From positions 1 to 64,000 of the IMG/VR virus record IMGVR_UViG_3300029904_000005: a DNA stretch of 64,000 nt. One strand, 5' to 3'. The DNA is from a virus. Under the pieces are notes generated by a model. It saw only the letters and a program-made list of their open reading frames with translations. It searched no databases and was not told the DNA's origin. Below, one piece after another: positions 1,519-32,006 of this stretch; position 1 is the stretch's first letter, and each line of letters opens with the position of its first letter. The position numbers and the translations under genes were made by a program.

Positions 1519-1602
1519 GCAGAGGTGGCAGAATGGATAATGCACCAGTCTTCTAAACTGGCTTTCTAAAAGAAAATGAGGGTTCGAATCCCTCCCTCTG
1601 TA
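1519..1602 (+). tRNA. tRNA, type II (long variable arm). Anticodon loop CUUCUAA gives anticodon UCU by hand folding; isotype uncertain.
   Basis: Acceptor gcagagg/cctctgt. 3-bp D stem with a 10-nt D loop. Anticodon stem ccagt/actgg. Variable arm tttct-aaa-agaaa with a 5-bp stem. T arm gaggg-ttcgaat-ccctc. No CCA encoded. Confidence 0.7.
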
Positions 1603-1633
1603 CAATAATAAACCATTTAAATAAGAAAATACA

Positions 1634-2204: not shown

Positions 2205-3011
2205 ATGAGTTGTACAAATAATAAAAAGTCATTAATTATGGAATGGAAGATAGGAGAAATATTTGAGTTTGAAGGTGAGTGGTATCAGTGCATACCAGAT
2301 ACCACTGATGATAATTGCAATAATTGCTTTTTTCAAAAGAGATGTAGCAACATCACAGGTGATTGTAGCTCAACTGCAAGAAGCGACGGTAAAAGCGTAG
2401 CTTTCAAGAAACTTGAAAAGATAGGAGAACCTTATAAATTAGGCAAAGTGCTAATTCAACAATATCAGGGACTTGCTCCTGTAATATTACCTAAAAATTC
2501 GGAGTGCTCAAACATTTTTAGGGTAATTAGTAGCATAAACGTTATTGAGATAGAAATCAAACAACCCCAAGAAAATATGGAAGAATATAGAATGCATGAT
2601 GCAAAAGAAGATATTCCCGAATTTGACAAAGTTGTTGACGAGTGTCTATTTGGCGAGGATAAACTAAACTTAAAGCCGTTTGACCTTGAAGCAGCTAAAG
2701 CAGGTAAACCCGTCTGCACAAGGGATGGAAGAAATGCAAGAATTATTTGCTTTGATGCTAAATGTGCAGATACACCAATTATAGCTTTAGTATCACGTAA
2801 TGATGGAGAAATTTTGTTGAGGCATTATAAAGATGGTAAACTTAGTGTTGATAAAGATTCAGATGCTGACCTCATGATGCTCTCTGAAAAGAAAGAGGGT
2901 TGGATTGTCGTTAGACGAAGTGATATCTACGAGAATGAAGAGGAAGCCAGAGAGACATTGCTTAACTCTTACGAGGCAATGATGCTTAGGAATATAACAT
3001 GGGAGGAATAA
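2205..3011 (+). CDS. hypothetical protein (268 aa), Cys-rich N-terminus
   Basis: Long ORF; N-terminal CxxxxxxxCxxC cluster. Confidence 0.8.
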   Translation: MSCTNNKKSLIMEWKIGEIFEFEGEWYQCIPDTTDDNCNNCFFQKRCSNITGDCSSTARSDGKSVAFKKLEKIGEPYKLGKVLIQQYQGLAPVILPKNSECSNIFRVISSINVIEIEIKQPQENMEEYRMHDAKEDIPEFDKVVDECLFGEDKLNLKPFDLEAAKAGKPVCTRDGRNARIICFDAKCADTPIIALVSRNDGEILLRHYKDGKLSVDKDSDADLMMLSEKKEGWIVVRRSDIYENEEEARETLLNSYEAMMLRNITWEE

Positions 3012-3014
3012 ATT

Positions 3015-3191
3015 ATGTGGATAGCAAGAGATTTTGATAACAGTTTGTGGCTTTTTACTGATAAACCATATAAAGATGACTTTAGGTGGCGGTTGCCTAT
3101 TGGTGATGGACGTTGCCAACCATTACTTGAATGTTTGTTTCCTGAAGTAAAATGGGAAGATGAAGAACCAAGAGAATTAATACTGAAGTAA
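3015..3191 (+). CDS. small hypothetical protein (58 aa)
   Basis: Good RBS (ggaggaataaattATG). Its stop overlaps the next ATG (TAATG). Confidence 0.35.
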   Translation: MWIARDFDNSLWLFTDKPYKDDFRWRLPIGDGRCQPLLECLFPEVKWEDEEPRELILK

Positions 3192-3361
3192 TGGACACTA
3201 AAGAGTTATATGTGGAGAAGTACAGAGACTTTATTATTGTCAAAACAGTGATTCCTAATATTCCTTGGGCAGTTTACACTGAGTCCGGACAATTTGTGGC
3301 AACTTTTTTATCTAAATTTTCGGCAATGGCTTTTATTGATTTAAGTTATAAAGAGAAATAA
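3191..3361 (+). CDS. small hypothetical protein (56 aa)
   Basis: Translationally coupled to its neighbours (overlapping stop and start). Confidence 0.35.
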   Translation: MDTKELYVEKYRDFIIVKTVIPNIPWAVYTESGQFVATFLSKFSAMAFIDLSYKEK

Positions 3362-3362
3362 T

Positions 3363-3560
3363 ATGGCATGGGTAGCGACAGATAAGGACGGTACTGAGAA
3401 AATATTTCCTTTTCAGCCCTATAGAGTAACAGATTATTGGACCTGTTCTATGTATATGTTTTTATCTGGGCCTATTCAACTACCAAAAGGTTCCATTAAG
3501 AAACTTATTGGAAGAAATCTCACATGGAAAGATGAATTTGTTGAACTTAAAGAAGAATAG
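3363..3560 (+). CDS. hypothetical protein (65 aa)
   Basis: ORF track entry; tight packing with neighbours. Confidence 0.5.
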   Translation: MAWVATDKDGTEKIFPFQPYRVTDYWTCSMYMFLSGPIQLPKGSIKKLIGRNLTWKDEFVELKEE

Positions 3561-3562
3561 TT

Positions 3563-4042
3563 ATGAATGAAGTTAAAATACAGATACCTGATAATTGTGA
3601 ACTCATCAAGGATGGGGACACATATATTGTGAAGGAAAAGAAACAAAGACCTCCAAGAAGTTGGGAGGAGTTCTGTGAGAGATATCCTATCAAGAAAGGA
3701 GAATCTTATATATCTATCAGTAGTAATATCTGTTCTGCAAGTTTTGATTATGTAGATAGATATTCAAAAAGTTACTGCGCCTCGAAAGAAGAAGCAGAAG
3801 CCTTTCTTGCCCTCATGCAGTTAAGGCAGTTGAGAAAGGCTTGGGTTGGTGATTGGGAACAACCTAAAGGAAAGTTTTGTGCCGGAATACTTTGTAGGGT
3901 ATATCCTACTCATGATGAAGTTGCTGTATCTTATGCTACATTTTGGACAAACATAGTTCTTTCATTCCCAACTAAAGAGATGGCTGAAGATTTCCTTAGT
4001 TGTTTCAAGGACTTATGTGAAAGGGCTAAGACTTTATTATAA
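3563..4042 (+). CDS. hypothetical protein (159 aa)
   Basis: ORF track entry; no recognisable motif. Confidence 0.75.
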   Translation: MNEVKIQIPDNCELIKDGDTYIVKEKKQRPPRSWEEFCERYPIKKGESYISISSNICSASFDYVDRYSKSYCASKEEAEAFLALMQLRQLRKAWVGDWEQPKGKFCAGILCRVYPTHDEVAVSYATFWTNIVLSFPTKEMAEDFLSCFKDLCERAKTLL

Positions 4043-4046
4043 AAAG

Positions 4047-4089
4047 TTCTCAATTTTCTTGCATAGTTGAGAATTTTTACTTATTTTTG
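4047..4089 (+). promoter_or_regulatory. terminator-like inverted repeat plus a Bacteroidetes-type -7 box (TAttTTTG) upstream of the Ro-like gene
   Basis: ttctcaa...ttgagaa is a 7-bp inverted repeat at 4047-4074. tatttttg at 4082-4089 matches the TAnnTTTG -7 consensus, 27 nt before the ATG at 4116. Confidence 0.4.
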
Positions 4090-4115
4090 CAGTGTCAAAC
4101 ATTAAAACAGAAAAG

Positions 4116-5525
4116 ATGAGCAAAGTAAATCCGTCATTAAGGAAAACCTCAAAATTTGATGAGGAAAGATTGGCTGGTGGCTCTGGTGCATTAGCAGCAA
4201 AACAGAGCAATGTGGCTCTATTAAGGAGAGCAGTACTTGCTAACCTCCTTTGGGAGAATGTGGCATATATGGATGGAATAAGGGTTGCTGAGGAAATTCA
4301 GAGACTTGTACCTCTGTGCCCTGCTGAGGAGGTATACAATATAGCCCTTGAAGCAAGGACAATGCAGAAGCTGAGACATACTCCTTTGTTCCTTGCAGTG
4401 GAGATGTGCAAGTATCCTGAGCATAAGATGTTTGTACAGGACTTGCTGCCTCAGATAATCACAAGGGCAGACATGCTCACTGACTTCTTGGCTATCTATT
4501 GGAAGGATGGTAAAAAGCCTATTGCAAATCAAGCAAAGAAAGGCCTAGCACAGGCATTCCATAATTTCAATGAGTATAAACTTGCCAAATATGACAGAGA
4601 TGCAGCTATCAAACTGAGAGATGTCATGTTCTTATGCAGACCTAAGCCAAAGAATCAGTATGAGCAGGAGTTATTTAAAAAGGTAGCAGACAGGACTCTT
4701 GCTGTGCCTGAGACATGGGAAGTGATGCTGTCTACTGGAAAGGATAAGAAAGAGTCTTGGACTAAACTTATCACTGAAGGCAAGATTGGAGGACTGGCCA
4801 TGCTGAGAAACATAGCCAATATGAGAAAGGCAAATGTGGATAGGAGAGTGATTAATGAGGGTCTTAAGAAGTTAAAGTCCTCAATGCTCCTACCTTTGGA
4901 CTTCTTGAAGGCAAACAAGATGAATCCTGAGTTTAGAGGACAAATAGAGGATGCTATGCTAAGTAGTTATGCTAATCTACCTAAGTTAAAAGGTAAGACT
5001 TTGTTTATTGTAGATGTATCAGGCTCAATGAGGGCCCCAATGTCTACTAAGTCTGGATTCAATAGGCAAGATGCAGCATGTGCTATGGCTATGTTAGCTG
5101 CCAATCAGTGTGAGGACTATGAAATAGTCTGCACTGCTGGCAATGACTATGATAGGATTGGAGCACATGAGCATATCATGTATCCTCAAAGGGGATTTGG
5201 CATCTTCTCTCAGATAGAAGATACTAGAAACAGAATTGGATATGGAGGGATATTCACAAGACAGTGCCTTGAATGGTGTGAGAAGAAATTTAAAGGGCAG
5301 AACTTTGATAGAATCATTGTATTCTCAGACTCACAGGATTGTGATTATGACACAATGAAGACTCCTAAGCCTTTTGGTACCTACAACTACATTTGTGATG
5401 TGTCTGCACATACAAAGGGTGTCAACTACAATGGTGTATGGTCTGCTGAAATAAGTGGTTTCTCAGAGCATTTTATCACATTCATTGCAGCAATGGAGGG
5501 TATTCAGAACACCTTTGAGGAATAA
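4116..5525 (+). CDS. rsr: Ro60/Rsr-like protein: TROVE-like helical region plus a C-terminal vWA domain with a MIDAS motif
   Basis: ORF 4092..5525 trimmed to the ATG at 4116. vWA MIDAS motif FIVDVSGSM. N-terminal segments RHTPLFLAV and LAMLRNIANMRKA resemble conserved Ro60 TROVE motifs as I recall them (R.PTHLF.F and LLRNLGKMTA). Size about 470 aa. Confidence 0.6.
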   Translation: MSKVNPSLRKTSKFDEERLAGGSGALAAKQSNVALLRRAVLANLLWENVAYMDGIRVAEEIQRLVPLCPAEEVYNIALEARTMQKLRHTPLFLAVEMCKYPEHKMFVQDLLPQIITRADMLTDFLAIYWKDGKKPIANQAKKGLAQAFHNFNEYKLAKYDRDAAIKLRDVMFLCRPKPKNQYEQELFKKVADRTLAVPETWEVMLSTGKDKKESWTKLITEGKIGGLAMLRNIANMRKANVDRRVINEGLKKLKSSMLLPLDFLKANKMNPEFRGQIEDAMLSSYANLPKLKGKTLFIVDVSGSMRAPMSTKSGFNRQDAACAMAMLAANQCEDYEIVCTAGNDYDRIGAHEHIMYPQRGFGIFSQIEDTRNRIGYGGIFTRQCLEWCEKKFKGQNFDRIIVFSDSQDCDYDTMKTPKPFGTYNYICDVSAHTKGVNYNGVWSAEISGFSEHFITFIAAMEGIQNTFEE

Positions 5526-5540
5526 AAAAAATAAGAGTAC

Positions 5541-5567
5541 TGTGTAGTGTTTTGTCAGACTTACTTC
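5541..5567 (+). repeat. copy A of the ~28-nt motif (gtagtgt...agacttacttc)
   Basis: Lies directly 5' of tRNA-Lys. Its terminal ACTTC forms the start of the tRNA acceptor stem. Confidence 0.5.
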
Positions 5568-5635
5568 ATTAACTAAGTGGTTATAGTACAAAACTTTTAA
5601 TTTTGATGACACAGGTTCGAGTCCTGTATGAGATT
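5563..5635 (+). tRNA. tRNA-Lys (anticodon UUU)
   Basis: 73 nt. Acceptor acttcat/atgagat (one A-C mismatch, one G-U pair). D arm acta-agtggtta-tagt. Anticodon arm caaaa-cttttaa-ttttg. Variable loop atgac. T arm acagg-ttcgagt-cctgt. Confidence 0.8.
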
Positions 5636-5691
5636 GGGGAAACCCAAGTCTGGCATTTGTTCTCACAGTACTCTTTTTGAAATAAAATATT

Positions 5692-5821
5692 GAGGAGTTA
5701 GCTCAGTTGGTAGAGCACTTAATGTACTCTGTCAAAAGTTCCACAGTAAAGTGTTGATGACAGATAGAGTTACTTCGGTCTTTTAAATCAGTGGTCATAG
5801 GTTCGAGTCCTATACTCCTCA
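5692..5821 (+). ncRNA. tRNA-like RNA (130 nt) with a 58-nt insertion between the D arm and the anticodon arm; Lys-like anticodon loop CUUUUAA
   Basis: Perfect 7-bp acceptor pairing gaggagt/actcctc across 130 nt. Canonical D arm gctc-agttggta-gagc. Canonical T arm atagg-ttcgagt-cctat with discriminator A. The insert at 5717-5774 carries repeat copy B. The anticodon stem is weak. Confidence 0.55.
5744..5776 (+). repeat. copy B of the ~28-nt motif (inside the tRNA-like insert)
   Basis: Sequence cagtaaagtgttgatgacagatagagttacttc. Confidence 0.5.
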
Positions 5822-5827
5822 CTAAAT

Positions 5828-5855
5828 GCAGTATAGTGTATAATAGACTTACTTC
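5828..5855 (+). repeat. copy C of the ~28-nt motif (intergenic)
   Basis: Sequence gcagtatagtgtataatagacttacttc. Confidence 0.5.
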
Positions 5856-5939
5856 TGCCATAGTAAATATTGAAAATTTGTTTGGGTTATTGATTTTTTT
5901 TTTCAGTCTATTAGCTTTTCTTACTGCATTTTACAATAT

Positions 5940-6064
5940 GGGGATGTAGCTTAATGGTTATAGTACTCTAATCGTTTTTCTCTGGAAGCAGTAGTGTAGA
6001 TAAGAGTTACTTCAAGCATTTAATTCGTAATTAAAATATGAAAGTTCGATTCTTTCCATCCCCA
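5940..6064 (+). ncRNA. tRNA-like RNA (125 nt) with a 54-nt insertion between the D arm and the anticodon arm; anticodon loop UUCGUAA (CGU, Thr-like)
   Basis: Perfect acceptor ggggatg/catcccc. D arm gctt-aatggtta-tagt. Perfect anticodon arm tttaa-ttcgtaa-ttaaa at 6019-6035. T arm gaaag-ttcgatt-ctttc. The insert at 5965-6018 carries repeat copy D. Confidence 0.55.
5988..6013 (+). repeat. copy D of the ~28-nt motif (inside the tRNA-like insert)
   Basis: Sequence gcagtagtgtagataagagttacttc. Confidence 0.5.
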
Positions 6065-6076
6065 CTAGAATAGACT

Positions 6077-6097
6077 GGTGCATGTAATGGCTACTTC
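6077..6097 (+). repeat. copy E (degenerate) of the motif
   Basis: Sequence ggtgcatgtaatggctacttc. Weaker match to the other copies. Confidence 0.3.
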
Positions 6098-6157
6098 AAT
6101 TATTTTAACTGCATTTGTTTGACTTTTTACACAAGAACCATTACAGAAAGTTCCGTC

Positions 6158-6194
6158 TTAGGGCTACAGTAGAAATATTGTAGCCCTTTTTTGT
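6158..6194 (+). terminator. rho-independent terminator ending the RNA cluster
   Basis: gggctaca-loop-tgtagccc gives an 8-bp stem, followed by TTTTTTG. Confidence 0.65.
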
Positions 6195-6250
6195 TTGAAT
6201 ATATTCGAAACATATACAATATCTGATTTATTAATTTTCTAAAAAAAAAG

Positions 6251-6619
6251 ATGGAAAAGAAAAAGACTGCTCTTAACAGGGCACTGAAAGAACAGCATTT
6301 TGAAATTGCTGAAACAGCCATGAAAGGTGGTGAAGAATCTGGAAGCCTAGAATATCCTGAACTGGTCAGGGGACTTGTTGAAGGATATAAGGGCAAGACT
6401 GCCCATGCACCTATTGAGGTGATTATAACAAGTTCCATCTTCCTTAATGCAAAGGAGCTGATGGGTCTTATAGAGTCACTGAAGCACACTCTTAAAATCA
6501 AGATGGTAGAGGAGCTTAGAGAGAAAGCTGAGAAGGGTGAGGCAACCCCAACAGATGTAATGGCTGCACTGATGTTGGCAGACATGATGAAAACAACAGA
6601 ACACAAAGAGGATGAATAA
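6251..6619 (+). CDS. hypothetical protein (122 aa)
   Basis: Preferred over the overlapping antisense ORF 6127..6624, whose product is Ser/Leu-rich antisense-type sequence. Same strand as neighbouring genes. Confidence 0.7.
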   Translation: MEKKKTALNRALKEQHFEIAETAMKGGEESGSLEYPELVRGLVEGYKGKTAHAPIEVIITSSIFLNAKELMGLIESLKHTLKIKMVEELREKAEKGEATPTDVMAALMLADMMKTTEHKEDE

Positions 6620-6992
6620 CACAACTAAAATCTCCCTGACCATTGAATTGGAGGGGAGCACTCTGGTACGCCAGAGTGAGCCTGAGATTATTAAATACTC
6701 AGTAACAAAAAGAGACCTTGAACCCAGTAAGAAGTGGAAAGGTAAAGATGGTCTGGAAGTAGTGAGAAAGGGTGCTTTCAAACACTATAGTGCCATTCCA
6801 AGACCTGCTTCCCAGCACATCAATATGAGCATTGAGGCATATGAATATATGACCTCAAGTGAATGTCCATACTGGTCCAGACCTAATGTGTGGAGGAAAC
6901 TGAATGAGACAGAAAGGCTTGAGGCTCACTTACAGAGAATCTGTGAGCATATGGGGGGTAAGTCTTTCACCTATGAAGTGTTAGAGGATTAA
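6612..6992 (+). CDS. hypothetical protein (126 aa)
   Basis: ORF track entry; overlapping start and stop with the upstream gene. Confidence 0.75.
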   Translation: MNNTTKISLTIELEGSTLVRQSEPEIIKYSVTKRDLEPSKKWKGKDGLEVVRKGAFKHYSAIPRPASQHINMSIEAYEYMTSSECPYWSRPNVWRKLNETERLEAHLQRICEHMGGKSFTYEVLED

Positions 6993-7009
6993 TTATCTCA
7001 GTGTAAGGG

Positions 7010-7050
7010 GAAAGGAGTATGCTGAATAAGCCTACTCCTTTCTTTTTTTT
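7010..7050 (+). terminator. rho-independent terminator
   Basis: aaaggagta-loop-tactccttt gives a 9-bp stem, followed by a T9 run. Confidence 0.65.
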
Positions 7051-7069
7051 TAGTATAAACTGATTAATC

Positions 7070-7610
7070 ATGGCAGAATTTATATATTTCAGGAATCAAT
7101 GTAGTATGTGGTATCCTACAGGAGAAAACTTCTCACATGCTTTTGGTTATATAGAAGAAGCTGCATTTTCCATTGATGATGTATTCCCAACAGGAAGATT
7201 TATCTTGGTGGTAAGAGGACACTCAGGCTCTATACTTGCAGGAGGAATAGCATACTTACTGAGAAGAAAAGGTAGAGATGTGCAAATATCCATATCAAGA
7301 AAATCAGAATCCACTCATGGTTACAATCTTGAAGGTATATACCCTTTTGATAAAACAGATGAGGTGCATATAATAGTTGTTGATGACTTTACTCAGACAG
7401 GTGAGACCATCAATGCAATACTTAGGGATTTGGCTGAAAAAAAAAATGTACGGGAGAAAAACATTTGACATGCTATGTATTGCTAATCATTGGGATGAAA
7501 GTAGTTTTACCAAAGAGGGAGGAGATGAGTATTGGGAGGCACATAAAGAAGTGGCCTCTCATTTTGAGTATATATTATGTAATTCGAAAATAAGAAAGAA
7601 AAAGAAATGA
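7070..7610 (+). pseudogene. type I phosphoribosyltransferase (PRTase) gene split by a frameshift at an A10 homopolymer (7437-7446)
   Basis: ORF 7070..7468 carries the PRPP-binding motif IIVVDDFTQTGETI. ORF 7377..7610 continues in another frame. Removing one A from the A10 run fuses them into one ~180-aa product, a typical PRTase length. Confidence 0.5.
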
Positions 7611-7780
7611 AAGTATTAGTGATATTACTGTTACTGCTTCTCTTCTTCCTATGGGTATATATCAGATATGACCCTAAGTTGGATAGAATAAGGAATAAAG
7701 ACAACTCATATGTCATATTATGGTATAATAGCTATTGTTGGGGTAGAGAAACAGAAAGAAAATATGTAATTCTATTTTAG
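7607..7780 (+). CDS. small membrane protein (57 aa)
   Basis: ATG overlaps the upstream stop. N-terminal sequence KVLVILLLLLLFFLWVYI is a TM helix. Below the ORF-track cutoff. Confidence 0.4.
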   Translation: MKVLVILLLLLLFFLWVYIRYDPKLDRIRNKDNSYVILWYNSYCWGRETERKYVILF

Positions 7781-7781
7781 T

Positions 7782-7982
7782 ATGAAAACAGGCACAATTG
7801 TGAAAATAGTATTGTGGTTTATACTGTTTATTGCCCTGCTTAGTGTGGGACTGGAGATGGTATCAAACCCAAATACAATGGAGAATGTGATTGGATTCTT
7901 TATTGTGGCAGCTATAGTAATTATTTCAATCAAAACAAAGTGTTTAACAACAATTAAATTCAAAAGAAAACATGAAGAGTAA
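7782..7982 (+). CDS. small membrane protein (66 aa, 2 TM)
   Basis: Hydrophobic helices. Preferred over the antisense ORF 7772..7963. Confidence 0.5.
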   Translation: MKTGTIVKIVLWFILFIALLSVGLEMVSNPNTMENVIGFFIVAAIVIISIKTKCLTTIKFKRKHEE

Positions 7983-8796
7983 AATTATTGTATTTGTAAT
8001 GGCTCTTATGGCTGTAATCAGCCTGAGTAGCTGTAGAGAAAGAATTGATGCAGGATATGAGGGCATCAAGGTGAACCTTTATGGTTCAGACAAAGGTGTG
8101 GATGAAGTATCACTGGTGACTGGTACTGTGTGGTACAATCCTATCACCACTAAAATCTATGAGTATCCTACATTCGTGCAGACTGTGGATTATGCTCCTT
8201 TCAGTATTAATGCAAAGGATGGCAGCTCATTCACAGTAGACCCTACCATCTCTCTGAAGATTGTAGATGGAAAGTCAGCTGAGGTATTCAAGAAATATAG
8301 GAAAGAGGATATTACTGAAGTTATTAATACAACTCTATACAATTATGTAAGGAATGCTTTCAGAATCCAGCTGAATAATTACACTACTGATGAATTGGTA
8401 AGTAAGAGGGAAGAGTTTGAGAAAGCCATTGAGGACAGGCTGGCTGAGGAATTGTTTGCTGAAAATTTCCAGTTGGAGCAGATGACCTCAGGCTTGCAGT
8501 ATCCTCAGACTCTTGTGAATGCCATTGATGCAAAGAATGCAGCAGTTCAGGAGGCACAGAAAGCACAGAATGAGGTATTGAAGATTAAGGCTGAGGCTGA
8601 GAAGAAGATTGCAGCAGCAAATGGTGAGGCACAGGCTCTGAAAATCAAGGGTGATGCAGAAGCAGAATACAATAGAAAGATTGCTGCATCCCTATCTCCC
8701 CTAATTGTACAGCAGATGATGCTTGAGAAGTGGGATGGTAAACTACCTATATATGGTACAGTTCCCACATTATTCAGAAATGTAGCAGAGAAATAA
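7972..8796 (+). CDS. SPFH/band-7 (prohibitin-like) domain lipoprotein
   Basis: Lipoprotein signal MKSKIIVFVMALMAVISLSSC. SPFH-like core, then an Ala/Glu/Lys-rich coiled-coil (EAQKAQNEVLKIKAEAEKKIAAANGEAQALKIKGDAEAEY). Confidence 0.65.
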   Translation: MKSKIIVFVMALMAVISLSSCRERIDAGYEGIKVNLYGSDKGVDEVSLVTGTVWYNPITTKIYEYPTFVQTVDYAPFSINAKDGSSFTVDPTISLKIVDGKSAEVFKKYRKEDITEVINTTLYNYVRNAFRIQLNNYTTDELVSKREEFEKAIEDRLAEELFAENFQLEQMTSGLQYPQTLVNAIDAKNAAVQEAQKAQNEVLKIKAEAEKKIAAANGEAQALKIKGDAEAEYNRKIAASLSPLIVQQMMLEKWDGKLPIYGTVPTLFRNVAEK

Positions 8797-8804
8797 TTAT
8801 AGTT

Positions 8805-8945
8805 ATGTGGTGGATTATTATAGCTGTCATATTTATTGCCTTTACTACCTGCATACTCAAAGATACCCATGTGAAAAAATACAATAGGACTCGGTATAAT
8901 TATTACACACTGGATGAGGAGTATGACCTTAAACTGCCTTTATAG
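8805..8945 (+). CDS. small membrane protein (46 aa)
   Basis: N-terminal MWWIIIAVIFIAFTTCIL is a TM helix. Lies between the SPFH gene and the next membrane ORF. Confidence 0.35.
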   Translation: MWWIIIAVIFIAFTTCILKDTHVKKYNRTRYNYYTLDEEYDLKLPL

Positions 8946-8951
8946 GCATGG

Positions 8952-9158
8952 ATGATTATAGCAGGTTCGTACTTTTTACCTATTATGAATATTGTGGCAT
9001 TTGTAGCTTTCCTTATTTATTACATTTATCATGCAGGACTGGACCCTAAAACCGTAGATAATGGTAATGAGGAAAACTATGCCTTCTCACTGAATGGGAA
9101 TAATTGGGTAACTAAGGGACTTTTGGCAATAAAGAAAGTATTAAACAAGAAGATATGA
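8952..9158 (+). CDS. small membrane protein (68 aa)
   Basis: Hydrophobic N-terminus. Its stop overlaps the helicase start (ATGA). Confidence 0.55.
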   Translation: MIIAGSYFLPIMNIVAFVAFLIYYIYHAGLDPKTVDNGNEENYAFSLNGNNWVTKGLLAIKKVLNKKI

Positions 9159-10369
9159 CAAGAGAAGAACTACAGATACAGTCCCTATCACTAATTAAAC
9201 AAAGTAATAGAGTTGCATTACAATGGTGTACAGGATTAGGTAAGAGCAAAATGGCTATTGATATGGCTAATTATCTGGCAGATAAGGAGTTTAAGGTAAA
9301 CTCAGAACCTCTCAATGTATTACTTGTAGTAGCAGAGACTGCACATAAGTCCAATTGGAAAGAGGAGATTGACAAATGGGAGTTAAGAACAGGAGAATGG
9401 GTAATGGAGTGTTATGCCTCACTGAAGAAGTACAGGAATACTCATTGGGATTTGATTATCTTTGATGAGGCCCACCATCTTGGCTCTGATTTGAGAATGG
9501 ATGTGCTGGCTGAGCTTCATGCAAGCAACATCATTCTATTATCTGCTACTCTTCCTGACCAAGTAATGCAGGCTGTAACTGGAGTTTTTGGGGAATTTGT
9601 TACTTCAAAGGTTACTCTCAAGCAGGCTATAGAATGGGGAATATTACCAACTCCTAAAGTATATCTTATTCCATTAACTCTTGATAGTACATACCCTAAT
9701 TGTACAATCATAGAGGAGTGGGGTAAAAAGGAAAAGAGAGTCACTTACAAATGCAGGTTCCATGAAAGATGGGAGTACTTGAAGAATAAGAACAAGTACC
9801 CTAATGTGACACTGGAAATTTCCTGTACACAACAACAGAAGTATGATTATCTATCTGCCCAGTTTGATTATTGGAAGAATAGATTTCTCTCAACAAGAAA
9901 TGAAGCTGTGAAAAATAAGTGGCTACAGATAGGCTCAAAAAGAAAAAGATTTCTTGGAGAATCAAAGACAGCAGTTGTAAGGCAGCTATTAAAGGACCTC
10001 GAAGGTAAAAGATATATATGTTTTTGTGCTAGTATAGAACAGGCTGAATCTCTTGGAGGGACTAATACCATACATTCAAAGAAAGATAATTCACTTGAGA
10101 TTATTGACAAGTTCAATGCAGGGGATATTAATAGTCTGTTTGCTGTAGGAATGCTTCAGGAAGGACAGAATCTCACAGGAATACAGGCAGGGGTAATTAT
10201 ACAGCTTGATGGTCAGGAGAGAGGATTTATACAGAAAATGGGTAGGAGTATGAGGTCAGATACTCCTATACAATATGTGTTATATTACAGAGATACAAGA
10301 GATGAGGAATATCTTGACTCTGTATTTGAGAATATTGATAAAGATTATATAGCTATTATGGAGAAATGA
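9155..10369 (+). CDS. superfamily II DNA helicase (DEAH box)
   Basis: Walker A CTGLGKSK. Walker B/DEAH IIFDEAHH. C-terminal helicase domain motifs. Confidence 0.8.
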   Translation: MTREELQIQSLSLIKQSNRVALQWCTGLGKSKMAIDMANYLADKEFKVNSEPLNVLLVVAETAHKSNWKEEIDKWELRTGEWVMECYASLKKYRNTHWDLIIFDEAHHLGSDLRMDVLAELHASNIILLSATLPDQVMQAVTGVFGEFVTSKVTLKQAIEWGILPTPKVYLIPLTLDSTYPNCTIIEEWGKKEKRVTYKCRFHERWEYLKNKNKYPNVTLEISCTQQQKYDYLSAQFDYWKNRFLSTRNEAVKNKWLQIGSKRKRFLGESKTAVVRQLLKDLEGKRYICFCASIEQAESLGGTNTIHSKKDNSLEIIDKFNAGDINSLFAVGMLQEGQNLTGIQAGVIIQLDGQERGFIQKMGRSMRSDTPIQYVLYYRDTRDEEYLDSVFENIDKDYIAIMEK

Positions 10370-10938
10370 AACTTATAATAGATGATAAACTATTAGAGAG
10401 ATATGGAGTAAGTCTGGAAGAGTTTTTATATCTCATGCTACTGGATTTAGACAGCTCAACTGAGATTATAGATACTCTTGAGAAAAAGGGATGGCTTGTC
10501 AAGGGACATCTTACAGAGATATCAAGACAGAGATTAGCAGCTGCTCTTAACAAAACTAAGGAAGAACCATCAACTGACAGCAGAATAGATAATCTTGTTG
10601 AAAGACTGATGAACATATTTCCTAAAGGAAAAAAGGAAGGAACAGCTTATTATTGGAGAGGCAACAGAAAGGAAATTAAAGACAAACTTCTTAAGTTCTT
10701 TGTATACTTTGGTGATACCTATACTGATGGCCAGATAGCCAATGCAGCTCAAAAATATGTAGATTCCTTTAATGGAAATTATACATATATGAGATTATTA
10801 AAGTACTTTATCTGGAAGAATGACAAGAAGGCTACTCCTGAGGGACTGGCAGTTGAACAGGTATCTGAGTTAGCTTCTTATATAGAAAATGAAGGGCAGG
10901 AGGACCATGATAATGACTGGAGCACACAACTTATCTGA
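10366..10938 (+). CDS. hypothetical protein (190 aa)
   Basis: ORF track entry; overlapping start and stop with the upstream gene. Confidence 0.75.
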   Translation: MKLIIDDKLLERYGVSLEEFLYLMLLDLDSSTEIIDTLEKKGWLVKGHLTEISRQRLAAALNKTKEEPSTDSRIDNLVERLMNIFPKGKKEGTAYYWRGNRKEIKDKLLKFFVYFGDTYTDGQIANAAQKYVDSFNGNYTYMRLLKYFIWKNDKKATPEGLAVEQVSELASYIENEGQEDHDNDWSTQLI

Positions 10939-12100
10939 ATTGTCCATTAAGGATAGAGTTAAAGCAAGGATAATTGAGAGAAGGGATAGATTAAGTCATA
11001 ATAGAATTAATTCTATTCCCTCTCCTTTTGTCAGATTCAAGAGTGAGTTTCTTGGAGTAGAACAGGGAAAGATGTATTTAATTTCATCCTTTACTAAAGG
11101 TGCTAAGACCCAATTCTCTACATTTATGTTTGTAATAAATGTGTTGATGTATGCCTATAATCATCCTGATAAGATAAGAGTAAGATGGTTTATGTATCTA
11201 CTTGAAGAGACAAAGGAGGATATGATGGCAAGAATCATGTGTCATCTTATATATCATTTGTCAGGAAAAAAGATTGAGGTATCTCCTACTGCACTTATGT
11301 CAAGCGACAATATTCCTGTACCACAGGCAGCACTTGATGTAATGGAATCTCAAGAGTTTAATAGTATAATTGACTTCTTTGAGTCCCATACTGAGTTTTC
11401 TGATAGTACAAACCCTACAGGAGTGTATAATGAATGTCTGTCTTATGCCAAAGCTTATGGTACAATTCATACAAAGAAGAAAAAGTATAGAGATGATAAT
11501 GGTGTAGAGCATGAAATTGACGGTTTTGACTTTTATGAGCCTGATGATGAGGATGAGTACAGGATAATACTAGTAGACCATGTATCCCTACTCTCTCAAG
11601 AAAGAGGCTTTACACTTAAACAAAGTATTGATAAACTGGGAGAATATTGTATTATACTGAGAGACAGATATAAGTTTACTCCTGTACTTATACAGCAGCA
11701 GAATACTGACCAGGAATCCAATGATGCTTTCAAGATGCAGAGACTAAGGCCTACTGTAGCAGGCTTAGCTGACTCTAAGTATACAGCGAGAAATACTACT
11801 GTGTTCCTTGGATTATTTTCTCCTATAAAGTTTGAACTCAACAACTATAAAGGATATAACATTGAGATATTTAGAGACAATATCAGATTTCTTGAAGTTG
11901 TACTGAACAGAGGAGGCAGGCAAGGAGGTATAGTAGCATTATATTTCAATGGTTGTACATGCGACTTTGTTGAGCTCCCTAAACCTGATAACAGAGTAGA
12001 GATGGATAAGTGGTATAGTTGGCTAAAGGCAAAGGATAAAGCAGGCAAGGCTTTCTTTACCTTTGGAATAAGAAAAATGATTAGCAGGTTGCACAGGTAG
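10889..12100 (+). CDS. RecA-fold replicative helicase-like protein (DnaB/T7 gp4-like)
   Basis: Walker B-like IILVDHVSLLSQ and QQQN resemble DnaB-family helicase motifs. The true start may be the ATG at 10907 or 10913, which reduces the 50-nt overlap. Confidence 0.5.
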   Translation: MKGRRTMIMTGAHNLSELSIKDRVKARIIERRDRLSHNRINSIPSPFVRFKSEFLGVEQGKMYLISSFTKGAKTQFSTFMFVINVLMYAYNHPDKIRVRWFMYLLEETKEDMMARIMCHLIYHLSGKKIEVSPTALMSSDNIPVPQAALDVMESQEFNSIIDFFESHTEFSDSTNPTGVYNECLSYAKAYGTIHTKKKKYRDDNGVEHEIDGFDFYEPDDEDEYRIILVDHVSLLSQERGFTLKQSIDKLGEYCIILRDRYKFTPVLIQQQNTDQESNDAFKMQRLRPTVAGLADSKYTARNTTVFLGLFSPIKFELNNYKGYNIEIFRDNIRFLEVVLNRGGRQGGIVALYFNGCTCDFVELPKPDNRVEMDKWYSWLKAKDKAGKAFFTFGIRKMISRLHR

Positions 12101-12111
12101 AGAATATTTCA

Positions 12112-12119
12112 TAAGTTTG
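12112..12119 (+). promoter_or_regulatory. Bacteroidetes-type -7 box (TAagTTTG)
   Basis: Match to TAnnTTTG, 46 nt upstream of the ATG at 12166. Confidence 0.3.
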
Positions 12120-12165
12120 CAGCCTTTTCCAAGCAAAAGTAACATTTAACATTACAAGTGAAACA

Positions 12166-12870
12166 ATGGCAAAAATTGTAGCAATTTTAGGTTCATCAGG
12201 AGATGGAAAGACTACTTCTACTATCATAAATCCTGATGGAAGTTTTGACCTTGAAAATTATCAAGGTATGAGTCCTGAGTCTCATTTTATTCTTAATTTG
12301 GATAGGAAGACACTTCCATTTCCAGCAGGAATGTGGTGTACTGAAAGGAAGAATTATTATGAGCCTAAGGATTTTAAGGAAATCAGAATGATGATTGAAT
12401 GGTGTGCTAAGCAACAGAACATCAAGTCTATATCCATAGACACTGTAAATATTTATCTTGCTATGAAAGAGTTTAATGATAGGAAGAAAATGACCTATGA
12501 CCAGTGGAAGGATGTGGCTAATGATGTTATAGAGCTTAATATGCTGTGTAATACTACTCTCAGAGAGGACCAGATAGTTTATATCATGGGGCACACAATG
12601 CTTCAGACTCAAGCTGATGGCAGTGAGAAAACAGTATTTAGTGTAATAGGTAAGAAATTGACTAAAACACAGCCTGAAGGCTTCTATCCTATGGTCCTTA
12701 TGACAAGAGTTGAATATGGGGATAATGGTGATAATAAGTATTATTTCCAGACTAGAGCCAATCATTCATCTGCCAAGACCCCTTTGGGGATGTTTGATAA
12801 ATTTGAGATTCCTAATAGTCTCAAACTTGTTGATGATACCATAAGAAACTATTATAAGATGAATGGATAG
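12166..12870 (+). CDS. P-loop NTPase (RecA-like/AAA_24-like)
   Basis: Walker A AILGSSGDGKTT at the N-terminus. Size about 230 aa. Confidence 0.6.
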   Translation: MAKIVAILGSSGDGKTTSTIINPDGSFDLENYQGMSPESHFILNLDRKTLPFPAGMWCTERKNYYEPKDFKEIRMMIEWCAKQQNIKSISIDTVNIYLAMKEFNDRKKMTYDQWKDVANDVIELNMLCNTTLREDQIVYIMGHTMLQTQADGSEKTVFSVIGKKLTKTQPEGFYPMVLMTRVEYGDNGDNKYYFQTRANHSSAKTPLGMFDKFEIPNSLKLVDDTIRNYYKMNG

Positions 12871-13150
12871 GGAAGAGACTTTAAGACTGTCAAGATTAGT
12901 TGCTTTTGGTGGATTATCTTTGACTGATTTTTTTAAAGTAATTACAGAATACTGCCTTGAGAAAGGTAAAAGAGACAGTGATATTGCAATACTTAGAGAA
13001 TACTTAGCAAAGGATATTTTTGCATTACACTCCTGTATGACTCAGGCACTGGAATACTTTGAGAAGAAATTTACCATATGCAAGGTATGGAGTGCTCCCA
13101 ATCCATTAAGTAATCAAGGACAAGAAAGAAAAGTAATATTAATCTTTTAA
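12863..13150 (+). CDS. hypothetical protein (95 aa)
   Basis: ORF track entry; overlapping start with the upstream gene. Confidence 0.6.
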   Translation: MDREETLRLSRLVAFGGLSLTDFFKVITEYCLEKGKRDSDIAILREYLAKDIFALHSCMTQALEYFEKKFTICKVWSAPNPLSNQGQERKVILIF

Positions 13151-13162
13151 TTAAAAGAAAAC

Positions 13163-13651
13163 ATGAATACAAAAGTTTTAACAGTAAGACAGTTCGCCGC
13201 CATTAAGAGGGTGGCACAGAATGTAAACCCTTTGGTAGTAAAAAAGAATAAGATTGCTGCCAAGATTAATGAGTTGAATGAGGAATATAATGCCCTCTGT
13301 AATGAGATTATAGGTCATGAGATGGGCATTAAGAATCTGACAGGAGGTCTGACCAGTGAGGACCTTATCACTAAGAGAGTTGAGGACACTGGTAAGGTAG
13401 ATAAGGATGGCAGACCTATCAAAACTACCAAGTATGAGCCTAAAGAGGGAATATTAACCTTCAATGAGGAGAATAATGTGTATGAGATTCATATAGAGGA
13501 AACTCCTGTACCTGAGGCTGTAGACCCTGAGTCTGTTGATGACACTGAGAAAGCTCCTGAGGTAGAAGTGAAAACTGGTGAAGAAGCTCCTATCAGTCCT
13601 GTTGCAGAGTTTACTGAAGAAGACAAGAAAGACATTCCTTTCATGCAATAG
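13163..13651 (+). CDS. hypothetical protein (162 aa), acidic C-terminal half
   Basis: ORF track entry. Preferred over the antisense ORF 13454..13648. Confidence 0.7.
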   Translation: MNTKVLTVRQFAAIKRVAQNVNPLVVKKNKIAAKINELNEEYNALCNEIIGHEMGIKNLTGGLTSEDLITKRVEDTGKVDKDGRPIKTTKYEPKEGILTFNEENNVYEIHIEETPVPEAVDPESVDDTEKAPEVEVKTGEEAPISPVAEFTEEDKKDIPFMQ

Positions 13652-13705
13652 TTAAATAACATATGGTTTTAAATGGAAATATAAACAATAAATAACTAAA
13701 TAAAT

Positions 13706-14647: not shown

Positions 14648-14669
14648 TAAAAATTATTGAACATAAGAT

Positions 14670-17743: not shown

Positions 17744-18002
17744 GCTAATTATACCTGAAGAGGTTGAGAAAAAGATAAGATATATATGCCAGCAAATATG
17801 GAAAGATGAATGGTCTGGCACTCTCTTCTATAAACCAGAAGGGAGGTTTGAGGATGGTACTTTGGCTATCAGATGTGTGGATATTTATGTCATGGATATT
17901 GGAACTGCTGCCTATACAGAGTTTGATATGTCTCCTGATGTAATCAGCTATATGACTGATAATCCTGAGTTGCTTGACTGTCAGATGGGACTCATCCATT
18001 AA
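17679..18002 (+). CDS. hypothetical protein (107 aa)
   Basis: ORF track entry. Overlaps the upstream gene by 65 nt in another frame. Confidence 0.55.
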   Translation: MEKQNKETKKVIELVKKSDTFKLIIPEEVEKKIRYICQQIWKDEWSGTLFYKPEGRFEDGTLAIRCVDIYVMDIGTAAYTEFDMSPDVISYMTDNPELLDCQMGLIH

Positions 18003-32005: not shown

Positions 32006-32006
32006 A

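What the first reader, a model, noticed from the sequence alone, without database searches (positions are those of the whole stretch)
5692..6064. Two tRNA-like genes with canonical acceptor, D and T arms but a 54-58-nt insertion between the D arm and the anticodon arm
Each of 5692-5821 and 5940-6064 shows perfect 7-bp acceptor pairing (gaggagt/actcctc; ggggatg/catcccc) over 125-130 nt. A textbook D arm follows the 5' strand and a textbook T arm (ttcgagt/ttcgatt loops) precedes the 3' strand. Neither can be reduced to a normal 73-nt tRNA. The second has a perfect anticodon arm (tttaa-ttcgtaa-ttaaa, CGU). The first has a Lys-like loop cttttaa on a weak stem. The extra segment sits between D arm and anticodon arm, near positions 26/27. 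That is not the canonical 37/38 intron site and not a variable arm. Bacterial and phage tRNA introns are normally long group I introns in the anticodon loop. So these are either non-canonically interrupted tRNAs needing an unusual splicing or processing route, permuted or split tRNA relics, or tRNA-mimic ncRNAs (Y-RNA-like).
Basis: seen in the sequence. Interest (0 to 1): 0.8.

Follow-up and report, generated by a model that had tools for sequence, protein, structure and literature searches.

The report
Phage Y RNAs shaped like tRNAs
The two "interrupted tRNAs" are non-coding Y RNAs encoded next to a crAss-like gut phage's Ro60 gene: they are tRNA look-alikes carrying a conserved, probably Ro60-binding, hairpin, a re-wired version of the known bacterial YrlA tRNA mimics, not tRNAs with introns.

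Summary
Window 5692-5821 and 5940-6064 each have a perfect 7-bp acceptor stem, a canonical T arm and a 50-60-nt extra segment. The same long units (124-145 nt) occur in 49 of 54 related crAss-like loci. They show abundant compensatory changes in the acceptor, the T stem and two helices inside the insert.

They lie just downstream of a TROVE/Ro60 gene (4116-5525), in an array of five structured RNAs ended by a terminator. All five share one module: URGUG loop, 8-bp helix, invariant UUACUUC, GUUCY loop, variable closing helix. Three units carry it "open", formed by the RNA's own ends.

The same module forms the terminal stem of YrlA-type Y RNAs next to distant TROVE genes, including Caulobacter phage CcrColossus and Xylella phage Usme. 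Unit 1 is an exact circular permutation of those RNAs, opened at the acceptor stem and closed at the module. In unit 2 the module arm replaces the D arm, and the triplet in its anticodon-like loop varies freely among close relatives.

Verdict: Y-RNA-type tRNA mimics, a new topological variant of a known kind. Intron, split-tRNA and junk-insertion readings are not supported. Ro60 binding, processing and function are inferred.

The parts
4116..5525 (+). Ro60/TROVE orthologue gene. The ATG at 4116 gives 469 aa; an upstream GTG at 4092 gives 477 aa.
   Evidence: Pfam TROVE E=5e-14, with weak vWA_Ro60 and VWA_2 matches. The best solved relative is Thermus phage phiLo Ro60 (9KOP/9L5Y), E=7e-15 over residues 32-469, with the MIDAS motif DVSGSM conserved. 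It is 78% identical to crAss001 gp96, annotated 'TROVE domain-containing protein'.
5533..5675 (+). Unit A, an open-type Y-like RNA. Outer helix H3 5533-5544/5664-5675; UAGUG 5545-5549; helix H1/2 5554-5561/5647-5654; UACUUC 5562-5567; GUUCU 5659-5663. A complete tRNA-Lys(UUU)-like cloverleaf (5563-5635) is nested in the apical part.
   Evidence: MFE fold z=-4.5. Module found by the two-helix scan. ARAGORN and Rfam call the nested tRNA (58.9 bits). Conserved in L003-L007 and L032.
5692..5821 (+). Unit B, the first element of the finding: a tRNA-order YrlA-like RNA. Acceptor 5692-5698/5814-5820; D arm 5701-5716; spacer 5718-5725; module helix H1/2 5726-5733/5763-5770; loop AAAAGUUCC 5734-5742; hairpin H3 5743-5754; UGAUG 5755-5759; UACUUC 5771-5776; V hairpin GGU-CUUUUAA-AUC 5777-5789; AGUGGUC 5790-5796; T arm 5797-5813.
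   Evidence: CM built without the window scores 116.4 bits. Collinear with YrlA-type units only after rotation at the acceptor stem-loop.
5824..5931 (+). Unit Y, a simple open-type Y-like RNA. H3 5824-5833/5922-5931; UAGUG 5834-5838; H1/2 5842-5849/5905-5912; UACUUC 5850-5855; UUUCU 5917-5921.
   Evidence: Homologous unit in crAss001 at L002 2814-2903, with an identical UAGUGUAUAAUAGACUUACUUC.
5940..6064 (+). Unit C, the second element of the finding: a cloverleaf whose D arm is replaced by the module arm. Acceptor 5940-5946/6057-6063; D-position stem GCUU 5949-5952/AAGC 6014-6017; AAUGGUUAUAGU 5953-5964; H1/2 5965-5972/6000-6007; GUUUUUCU 5974-5981; H3 CUG-GAAG-CAG 5982-5991; UAGUG 5992-5996; UACUUC 6008-6013; A26 at 6018; 5-bp stem with 7-nt loop UUCGUAA 6019-6035; T arm 6040-6056.
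   Evidence: CM built without the window scores 105 bits.
6072..6158 (+). Unit D, a short and partly degenerate open-type unit. H3 AGAC/GUCU 6072-6075/6155-6158; UGGUG 6076-6080; H1/2 6084-6091/6137-6144 (7 of 8 pairs); UACUUC 6092-6097; GUUCC 6150-6154.
   Evidence: The MFE is not better than shuffles (z=0.23), so this unit rests on motif order and on homology with the last unit of related arrays (e.g. L003 4471-4615).
6160..6192 (+). Intrinsic-terminator-like hairpin plus U tract that closes the array.
   Evidence: 12-bp stem with 5 G-C pairs, followed by TTTTTT.

Best explanation
Window 5533-6192 is an array of five Y RNAs belonging to the phage's Ro60 (TROVE) protein. The two elements in the finding are its tRNA-mimicking members.

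All five RNAs share one module: a closing helix of variable sequence (H3); an internal loop with URGUG on one strand and GUUCY on the other; an 8-bp helix (H1/2); and an invariant UUACUUC. In three units the RNA's own 5' and 3' ends form H3, as in classical Y RNAs. In the two units of the finding H3 is capped by a loop, and the RNA instead opens at a tRNA acceptor stem.

Unit B has every element of a YrlA-type Y RNA in the same circular order: D arm, module, UUACUUC, V hairpin, T arm, acceptor. The break point is moved from the module to the acceptor stem. Unit C is a four-arm cloverleaf in which the module arm sits where the D arm would be.

Inferred mechanism, none of it shown here:
- The array is transcribed with the early Ro60 gene up to the terminator at 6160-6192.
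- Host RNase P and 3' processing enzymes cut at the tRNA-like units, which releases the individual RNAs and may allow CCA addition.
- The Ro60 ring binds the module.
- The tRNA-shaped part presents a tRNA surface to a host tRNA-binding or RNA-decay factor. In other systems Ro60-Y RNA complexes tether or gate polynucleotide phosphorylase (PNPase).

These RNAs are not decoding tRNAs and the extra segment is not an intron.
For: Shown here:

(1) The upstream gene is a full-length Ro60 homologue. Its crAss001 orthologue is an early gene followed by the same unannotated roughly 900-nt RNA region (PMC8375218).

(2) 49 of 54 related loci keep at least one long unit of 124-157 nt. The acceptor, the T stem and both insert helices covary, with 95.9% of cells paired against 39-50% for slid controls, and 18-20 of 23 pairs showing double changes.

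(3) The same module, circularly permuted, is found in the neighbouring non-tRNA units.

(4) In 79 TROVE loci spanning 40-87% protein identity, a motif-plus-two-helix scan finds 250 modules on the TROVE-sense strand and 2 on the antisense strand, with 64 of 79 loci positive. The scan is also positive in 10 of 17 loci of a TROVE group only 27% identical. None of 120 chance sequence matches in bacterial genomes met the helix criteria.

(5) Next to distant TROVE genes the module forms the terminal stem of RNAs ordered module-UUACUUC-V hairpin-T arm-closed acceptor loop-D arm-module. This holds in metagenomic loci, in CcrColossus and in Xylella phage Usme. The Rfam YrlA model matches these at E=1e-3 to 8e-9.

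(6) Unit B aligns with six such RNAs only after they are rotated at the acceptor stem-loop. Scores are 22.5-33 rotated, 13.5-19 unrotated and at most 9.5 shuffled, and the best rotation falls within 13 nt of the middle of the acceptor loop.

(7) The triplet in unit C's anticodon-like loop differs among near-identical relatives (GAU, CAU, GGU, AUU, CGU, UGU, GUA and others), while the loop frame YU-NNN-AA and the stem are kept.

From the literature: YrlA RNAs are Ro60-bound, circularly permuted tRNA mimics encoded beside Ro60 in bacteria and phages (PMC4201824; bioRxiv 10.1101/312249). A phage Ro60 binds phage Y-like RNAs and host PNPase (PMC12135203).
Against: - No experiment links these RNAs to the protein. 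Binding, processing and expression are all inferred.
- The literal YrlA Ro60-site motif GNCGAAN0-1G, and even CGAA alone, is absent from 5526-6200. The Rfam YrlA and Y_RNA models do not match the window.
- Type C units also occur inside large tRNA gene arrays of other phage contigs with no TROVE gene in the 4-5.6 kb held (L208, L219). The link to Ro60 is therefore not always local.
- Removing the insert from unit C would leave a perfectly canonical tRNA, so a processing route cannot be formally excluded for that type.
- My module scan used the conserved motifs as part of its criteria. Its specificity rests on the strand control and the chance-hit control.
Confidence: 0.8

Rival explanations
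1. They are precursor tRNAs with a non-canonical intron, in the D loop or at position 26/27. An unknown phage or host activity removes it to give functional tRNAs.
For: Deleting the insert from unit C leaves a textbook cloverleaf with a 5-bp anticodon stem and a 7-nt loop UUCGUAA. The phage does carry a group I intron elsewhere in the window.
Against: - The insert has no group I core and no ribozyme match, and at 50-65 nt it is too short for one.
- Its helices are conserved by covariation. The same module occurs in RNAs with no tRNA body and as the terminal stem of YrlA-type RNAs.
- Unit B would keep only a 3-bp anticodon stem after excision.
- The loop triplet changes among near-identical relatives without changes in the tRNA body.
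- From established knowledge, no bulge-helix-bulge endonuclease is known in bacteria.
Confidence: 0.05
2. They are functional decoding tRNAs that simply carry a large extra arm and are used in translation of phage genes.
For: They keep a perfect 7-bp acceptor stem, a canonical T loop GUUCRANUC, U8 and A14. Unit C also keeps an anticodon-loop frame YU-NNN-AA.
Against: - The triplet is not conserved among orthologues, and unit B has no proper anticodon arm.
- Many type C relatives lack the D-loop GG.
- All are tied to TROVE genes and share their extra arm with non-tRNA RNAs.
- By inference, a 50-nt arm at the D-stem/elbow side would be expected to clash with ribosomal tRNA sites.
Confidence: 0.04
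3. The RNAs are real, but the module's partner is not Ro60. It could bind another phage or host protein, or the tRNA-like units could serve mainly as RNase P/Z punctuation for processing the early transcript.
For: The canonical Ro60-site motif is absent. Type C units occur in tRNA arrays without a nearby TROVE gene. The gaps between units are only 2-16 nt, which is compatible with punctuation.
Against: The module co-occurs with TROVE genes, on the same strand, across 27-87% protein identity, both upstream and downstream of the gene. In YrlA-type relatives it occupies exactly the position of the Ro60-binding stem. Punctuation does not explain the conserved URGUG, UUACUUC and GUUCY motifs.
Confidence: 0.08
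4. The repeated motif is a DNA-level signal, such as promoters for the phage RNA polymerase or recombination sites, or a small mobile element that landed in tRNA genes.
For: The motif AGAsTTACTTC occurs four times within 450 bp. One copy contains TATAAT.
Against: The partner strands covary as RNA helices, G-U pairs are tolerated, and conservation is strand-specific. The TATAAT is not conserved between copies. The longer pattern TAGTG(8-14 nt)TTACTTC matches only inside this array in the 64-kb window. The position and structure of the insert are orthologously conserved in more than 50 genomes.
Confidence: 0.02

Closest known systems
YrlA (Y RNA-like A; Rfam RF02553; Chen et al. 2014, PMC4201824; structure in bioRxiv 10.1101/312249)
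   Same: - Encoded next to, and on the same strand as, a Ro60/TROVE gene.
- Contains a tRNA-like core: T arm with a GUUCRANUC loop, D arm with GG, U8/A14 and a 7-bp acceptor helix.
- The core is joined to a stem module.
- Unit B has the same elements in the same circular order as phage YrlA-type RNAs.
   Different: - The topology is re-permuted. Here the acceptor stem is open, with tRNA-like free ends, and the module is a capped hairpin. In YrlA the acceptor is a closed loop and the ends lie in the Ro60-binding stem.
- The motif is URGUG...UUACUUC/GUUCY rather than GNCGAAN0-1G.
- There is no Rfam YrlA hit in the window.
- Unit C puts the module at the D-arm position and keeps an anticodon-like arm, which YrlA lacks.
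Phage YrlA-type RNAs of Caulobacter phage CcrColossus and Xylella/Xanthomonas phage Usme (sub-threshold RF02553 hits)
   Same: They carry the same module: (G)GUGGCGUAG or UGGUGUAG, a helix, UUACUUC, and UGUUCC before the closing helix. They also form arrays of several units beside the TROVE gene.
   Different: Those units are in the classical permuted YrlA order and lie upstream of the gene. The TROVE proteins are only about 37% identical to this one.
Classical Y RNAs (metazoan Y1-Y5, Deinococcus Yrn1) and Thermus phage phiLo Yrl1/Yrl2 (PMC12135203)
   Same: The window's open-type units A, Y and D are stem/internal-loop/stem RNAs formed by pairing of the 5' and 3' ends, and they are encoded beside Ro60.
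   Different: The conserved motifs differ: a bulged helix in metazoa, and a CGAA bulge in phiLo. No binding data exist here.
tmRNA, including two-piece circularly permuted tmRNAs
   Same: A tRNA-like acceptor/T-arm domain is fused to a non-tRNA module, and tmRNA is a precedent for the same RNA family existing in permuted and unpermuted gene orders.
   Different: There is no mRNA-like reading frame or SmpB context, and the Rfam tmRNA model does not match the window.
Circularly permuted or intron-containing tRNA genes of algae and archaea
   Same: tRNA sequence interrupted or rearranged at non-canonical positions.
   Different: Those are processed to ordinary tRNAs by the bulge-helix-bulge endonuclease. 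Here the gene order is canonical, the extra segment is a conserved functional module, and no such enzyme is known in the host lineage (established knowledge).

Membership tests
YrlA / Y RNA-like (RF02553) | Encoded within a few kb of a Ro60/TROVE gene and on the same strand | tested here: met
   The units start 167 nt and 415 nt downstream of the TROVE stop codon at 5525, on the same strand.
YrlA / Y RNA-like (RF02553) | tRNA-like core with T arm, D arm and acceptor-type helix, and conserved tertiary-interaction nucleotides | tested here: met
   U8, G10, A14 and the T loop G-UUC-A-UC are invariant in 64 sequences. Unit B has the D loop AGUUGGUA and C48 in AGUGGUC. Unit C keeps GG in the 5' side of the D-position loop, but many type C relatives do not.
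YrlA / Y RNA-like (RF02553) | Conserved 5'-strand motif GNCGAAN0-1G in the Ro60-binding stem | tested here: not met
   There is no GNCGAAN0-1G and no CGAA anywhere in 5526-6200. The corresponding place holds URGUG. Phage relatives have GGCGUAG (CcrColossus) or GGUGUAG (Usme), which look like intermediates, but that is my inference.
YrlA / Y RNA-like (RF02553) | Topology: the RNA ends pair to form the Ro60-binding stem, and the acceptor stem is closed by a loop (a circularly permuted tRNA) | tested here: not met
   Units B and C have the reverse arrangement, with the acceptor open and the module closed by a 4-6-nt loop. They match YrlA-type units only after rotation.
YrlA / Y RNA-like (RF02553) | Reaches the Rfam gathering score (69 bits) | tested here: not met
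   No YrlA hit in the window even at E up to 10. The permuted relatives in other phages reach 26-50 bits.
YrlA / Y RNA-like (RF02553) | Bound by Ro60 in vivo; carries tRNA modifications (pseudouridine 55, dihydrouridine) | not testable with these tools
   Needs immunoprecipitation and modification mapping.
Canonical (decoding) tRNA | Cloverleaf of 70-95 nt detected by tRNA finders | tested here: not met
   The units are 130 and 125 nt. ARAGORN does not call them. The Rfam tRNA model gives 17 bits for unit B, and 34 bits for unit C with a mispaired acceptor.
Canonical (decoding) tRNA | Anticodon arm (5 bp plus a 7-nt loop) with the anticodon conserved among orthologues | tested here: not met
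   Unit B has a 3-bp stem. Unit C has the arm, but its triplet varies among near-identical relatives: GAU, CAU and GGU on the same body, and CGU, GGU, UGU and UGG on another.
Intron-containing bacterial or phage tRNA (group I intron) | Group I catalytic core inserted in the anticodon loop | tested here: not met
   The insert is 50-65 nt, lies outside the anticodon loop and has no Intron_gpI match. The window's real group I intron at 17950-18209 is readily detected.
Archaeal or algal non-canonical or permuted tRNA genes | Bulge-helix-bulge motif at the exon-intron junctions, or the 3' half encoded upstream of the 5' half | tested here: not met
   The gene order is 5' half, insert, 3' half. The insert is flanked by an 8-bp helix with asymmetric loops rather than two 3-nt bulges around a 4-bp helix. 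This was judged by inspection; no dedicated BHB search was run.

The most novel reading that the evidence does not exclude
[quoted passage not shown] They then act as Ro60-tethered tRNA decoys or baits for host enzymes that bind tRNA, such as anticodon nucleases of anti-phage defence, modification enzymes or synthetases. The freely varying triplet in an otherwise fixed anticodon-loop frame would be the footprint of an arms race. The coexistence of nested, arm-inserted, D-arm-replacing and classical permuted forms would show that YrlA-type RNAs arose by inserting a Ro60-binding hairpin into a tRNA and later permuting it. That would differ from the origin from a dimeric tRNA discussed in bioRxiv 10.1101/312249.
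Probability: 0.15. Interest if true: 0.85.

Novelty: new variant of a known kind. Interest (0 to 1): 0.6.

Why it matters
Y RNAs that mimic tRNA (YrlA) are known, but only as circularly permuted tRNAs with a closed acceptor stem and no anticodon loop. What their tRNA-like half binds is still unknown.

These phage RNAs keep the same parts in true tRNA order, with free acceptor ends. In one type they also keep an anticodon-like arm. They could therefore be substrates for RNase P, the CCA-adding enzyme and perhaps synthetases. That makes the question of what the tRNA mimic is for directly testable.

They also supply the missing unpermuted form for thinking about how YrlA evolved from tRNA.

The carrier is a crAss-like phage of Bacteroides. 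The TROVE gene is an early gene in the cultured relative crAss001 (PMC8375218), but no partner RNAs appear in the papers I could search.

From my own knowledge, not checked here:
- crAss-like phages are among the most abundant viruses of the human gut.
- Ro60 orthologues of gut commensals have been implicated as triggers of anti-Ro60 autoimmunity, so a very abundant gut-phage Ro60 RNP may be relevant.

On the practical side, these RNAs and their relatives are unannotated or mis-annotated as tRNAs in public records.

Tried and rejected
- tRNA with an intron: ARAGORN found only tRNA-Arg 1519-1603 and tRNA-Lys 5563-5635.
- Known RNA family: Rfam at the gathering threshold and at E up to 10 gave only tRNA fragments over 5480-6260, with no intron, ribozyme, Y_RNA or YrlA match.
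- Junk insertion: rejected because the insert is conserved in length, position and pairing across more than 50 genomes.
- Bacterial homologues: a genome-contig scan with GTTCTN{6,30}TAGTGN{8,14}TTACTTC was too degenerate. None met the two-helix criteria, so it served only as a chance control, and whether bacteria carry the module remains open.
- Megablast of window 3000-15000 against GenBank phages found nothing. A sensitive blastn search of the 5500-6250 region matched only crAss001-like phages, at about 70-75% identity. A second blastn search, of window 30000-37000, matched cr128_1, cr85_1, cr106_1 and crAss001 at about 75-79% identity.
- RNA-repair partners in the window, such as RtcB, RNA ligase or polynucleotide kinase: Pfam scans of 29 ORFs found none.
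- Supplementary alignments of Chen et al. 2014 and two reviews were not available in the library.
- A pseudoknot between the H3 loop (GAAG or GUAA) and UUACUUC: noted as possible but not general, because open-type units have no H3 loop. Not pursued.
- A resemblance of UAGUG...UUACUUC to GGUAGUGAGUUAUCUC in human Y1: this rests on my memory of the human sequence, was not tested, and is treated as probable coincidence.
Full report
**1. What is in the sequence**

Each has a perfect 7-bp acceptor helix, a canonical T arm and a discriminator A, and is 125-130 nt long. ARAGORN calls neither. The Rfam tRNA model gives 17 bits for the first. It gives 34 bits for the second only by pairing a false acceptor stem. 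No intron, ribozyme or Y RNA family matches 5480-6260, even at E up to 10.

**2. Genomic setting**

The window comes from a crAss-like phage. Sensitive blastn finds only about 70-79% nucleotide identity to crAss001, PhiCrAssBcn, cr128_1 and cr85_1 (Steigviridae).

The ORF ending at 5525 is a Ro60 homologue:
- Pfam TROVE at E=5e-14, plus weak Ro60-type vWA matches.
- A full-length match to the solved Ro60 of Thermus phage phiLo, E=7e-15 over residues 32-469, with the MIDAS motif DVSGSM conserved.
- Its crAss001 orthologue is gp96, annotated 'TROVE domain-containing protein'. It is likewise followed by about 900 nt with no annotation. It is reported as an early gene and a 'possible ribonucleoprotein component' (PMC8375218).

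None of the papers I could search describes partner RNAs for crAss-like phages.

**3. The two units are conserved, structured RNAs**

Using the TROVE protein I fetched 51 related IMG/VR loci at 69-87% identity. I then searched for a T arm followed by a 7-nt strand complementary to a strand 60-260 nt upstream. This found long units right after the TROVE gene in nearly every locus. In all, 49 of 54 loci have at least one unit of 124-157 nt.

Sixty-four distinct sequences align end to end (A1). For the acceptor, the T stem, an 8-bp helix inside the insert (H1/2) and a hairpin inside the insert (H3):
- 95.9% of cells form standard pairs, against 39-50% when the 3' partners are slid by 1-3 columns.
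- 18 of 23 pairs show changes on both sides.

A covariance model built from 49 homologues without the window sequences scores the two window units 116.4 bits (E=3e-24) and 105 bits (E=1e-21). Everything else in the 64 kb scores 27.7 bits or less.

The same model finds full-length units at 50-98 bits beside TROVE genes that are only 42-70% identical, and in two phage tRNA arrays. On that broader, model-fitted alignment the covariation is again strong: 95.9% paired, and 20 of 23 pairs with double changes. That alignment leans towards the model.

**4. Anatomy of the insert, and the rest of the array**

Read 5' to 3' in units B and C, the insert is:
- a helix strand (ACUCU plus 3 nt)
- an A/U-rich loop ending in GUUCY
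- a short hairpin H3 of variable, covarying sequence
- URGUG
- the complementary helix strand (3 nt plus AGAGU)
- an invariant UUACUUC

The same elements occur circularly permuted in the three other structured RNAs that fill the space between the Ro60 gene and the terminator at 6160-6192. In units A (5533-5675), Y (5824-5931) and D (6072-6158), H3 is formed by the RNA's own 5' and 3' ends, and the region after UUACUUC is the apical domain.

Unit A nests a complete tRNA-Lys(UUU)-like cloverleaf (5563-5635) in that apical domain. Unit D is short and weak (fold z=0.23).

The pattern TAGTG(8-14 nt)TTACTTC occurs three times in the window, all within this array, against 0.06 expected by chance.

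**5. Link to Ro60 and to YrlA**

I scanned 79 TROVE loci spanning 40-87% protein identity, requiring the motifs plus both helices. The scan found 250 modules on the TROVE-sense strand and 2 on the antisense strand, and 64 of 79 loci were positive. It was also positive in 10 of 17 loci of a TROVE group only 27% identical. Modules lie either upstream or downstream of the gene.

As a chance control, none of 120 sequence-only matches in bacterial genomes satisfied the helix criteria.

In the more distant loci the module forms the terminal stem of RNAs with this order: H3, UGGUG(UAG), H1/2, UUACUUC, a small hairpin with a 7-nt loop YUNNNAA, AGxGGUY, T arm, a closed acceptor stem-loop, UA, D arm, H1/2', UGUUCC, H3'. 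That is the published YrlA architecture of a circularly permuted tRNA with a closed acceptor stem (PMC4201824; bioRxiv 10.1101/312249).

Rfam's YrlA model matches these units at E=1e-3 to 8e-9, below its gathering score. They include cultured phages: Caulobacter phage CcrColossus, cited in the literature as carrying Y-RNA-like RNAs, and Xylella phage Usme.

**6. Unit B is a re-permuted YrlA**

Going round the circle, unit B has exactly the same elements in the same order. It is opened at the acceptor stem and closed at H3.

In global alignments with six YrlA-type units:
- unit B scores 22.5-33 when they are rotated at the middle of the acceptor stem-loop
- it scores 13.5-19 when they are unrotated
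- shuffles average about 3, with a maximum of 9.5
- among all rotations tried, the best lies within 13 nt of the middle of the acceptor loop

One contig (L294) has a YrlA-order unit (4922-5075) and a tRNA-order unit (5079-5204) side by side.

The 'Lys-like loop CUUUUAA on a weak stem' is therefore the YrlA V hairpin. The module helix takes the place of the anticodon stem.

**7. Unit C**

In all 37 type C sequences the four bases after the acceptor and UA/UG pair with four bases placed exactly before N26. The pairs covary: GCUU/AAGC, GCUA/UAGC, GUG/CAC. They are followed by a 5-bp stem, a 7-nt loop, a 4-5-nt variable loop and the T arm.

Unit C is thus a four-arm cloverleaf in which the D arm is replaced by the module arm. 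Put another way, the D loop holds the module.

The loop keeps the frame YU-NNN-AA, but the triplet varies among otherwise near-identical relatives. GAU, CAU and GGU occur on one body; CGU, GGU, UGU and UGG on another. This argues against a decoding role.

**8. How it probably works**

Shown:
- the conserved structures
- the shared module
- the linkage to TROVE genes
- the permutation relationship to YrlA-type RNAs

Inferred:
- The array is co-transcribed with the early Ro60 gene and ends at the terminator.
- The tRNA-like units are cut by RNase P and 3' processing enzymes, which would also release the intervening open-type RNAs, since the gaps are only 2-16 nt.
- CCA may be added. The phage's ordinary tRNA-Arg also lacks an encoded CCA.
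- Ro60 binds the module.
- The tRNA-shaped half engages a tRNA-binding or RNA-decay factor. By analogy, Ro60-Y RNA-PNPase complexes exist in bacteria and in Thermus phage phiLo (PMC12135203).

The literal GNCGAAN0-1G motif of YrlA is absent. CcrColossus (GGCGUAG) and Usme (GGUGUAG) suggest that URGUG is a diverged form of it, but that is my inference.

**9. Verdict**

The intron, split-tRNA and junk-insertion readings are rejected, and the Y-RNA-like tRNA-mimic reading is supported. These RNAs work like YrlA and are evidently related to it. They fail two defining features of the family as described, the topology and the motif, and they fail its Rfam model. I therefore file them as a new topological variant of a known kind, widespread in TROVE-encoding phages and apparently undescribed.

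The main weakness is that binding, processing and function are entirely inferential.

Noticed in passing
window 17950-18209 (+): Group I intron (Rfam Intron_gpI, 66.4 bits, E=1e-14). It lies between ORFs 16451-17743 and 19051-19959. A 244-aa ORF on the minus strand (18164-18898) overlaps its 3' part. The interrupted gene was not identified.
   Followed up: no
window 1519-1603 (+): tRNA-Arg(UCU) of 85 nt with a 13-nt insertion in the variable region. A class II-like long variable arm is unusual for an Arg tRNA. There is no encoded CCA.
   Followed up: no
L208 1527-1669 (+) and L219 2669-2817 (-), 2222-2366 (-): Type C units (60-83 bits with model R1), plus an open-type unit, sit inside arrays of 13-20 ordinary tRNA genes on 236-kb and 38-kb phage contigs. 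No TROVE gene lies in the 4-5.6 kb held. Whether these genomes encode Ro60 elsewhere is unknown.
   Followed up: partly
L325 3119-3186 (CcrColossus NC_019406 109217-109284); L297 2892-2966; L302 3303-3376: The 5' half of YrlA-type units (module strand, UUACUUC, V hairpin, T arm) is annotated or called as a tRNA. It is 'tRNA-Gln' in the CcrColossus record, and tRNA-Ser(tga) and tRNA-Thr(tgt) by ARAGORN. These are probably mis-annotations.
   Followed up: partly
L297 about 3040-3460 (+): Six or more copies of a roughly 36-nt repeat (AAUGGAGAAUAGCGUUCGUUCCCAGG..ACUACAGG), spaced about 65-70 nt apart, lie directly upstream of a TROVE gene on a 184-kb contig, downstream of its YrlA-type units. The array-like arrangement is of unknown nature.
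   Followed up: no
L276 2019-2366, L283 3092-3470, L294 6034-6341: tmRNA genes (ARAGORN for L276 and L283, Rfam for L294) lie within 1-2 kb of the TROVE gene and its Y RNA arrays in several large phage contigs. Two kinds of tRNA mimic are clustered together.
   Followed up: no
L002 3391-3534 and homologues (for example L009 4495-4635): The last open-type unit of crAss001-like arrays carries a strongly conserved apical segment, AAGUAAGAAAGGAGUAGAUUUU, which looks like a Shine-Dalgarno sequence. The corresponding unit D of the window lacks it.
   Followed up: no
window 5985-5988 against 6010-6013; type B relatives in alignment A1: The H3 loop is often GAAG or GUAA, complementary to the CUUC or UUAC of the invariant UUACUUC, so a pseudoknot is possible. 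It cannot be general, because open-type units have no H3 loop.
   Followed up: no
alignment A1, 'GGGGAUG UG GUGA' group: Cassette-like shuffling: three alternative anticodon-position arms are each linked to a particular T stem, and they combine freely with two alternative H3 hairpins (CCC-GAAG-GGG or AUG-GAAG-CAU). This suggests recombination among units or phages.
   Followed up: no
L042 3907-5551 (also L040, L043): In the clade with 69-70% identical TROVE proteins, the gene is followed directly by protein-coding ORFs of 81 aa and 462 aa. The Y RNA and tRNA-like units lie 2-4 kb further downstream, so the array is not always adjacent to the gene.
   Followed up: partly
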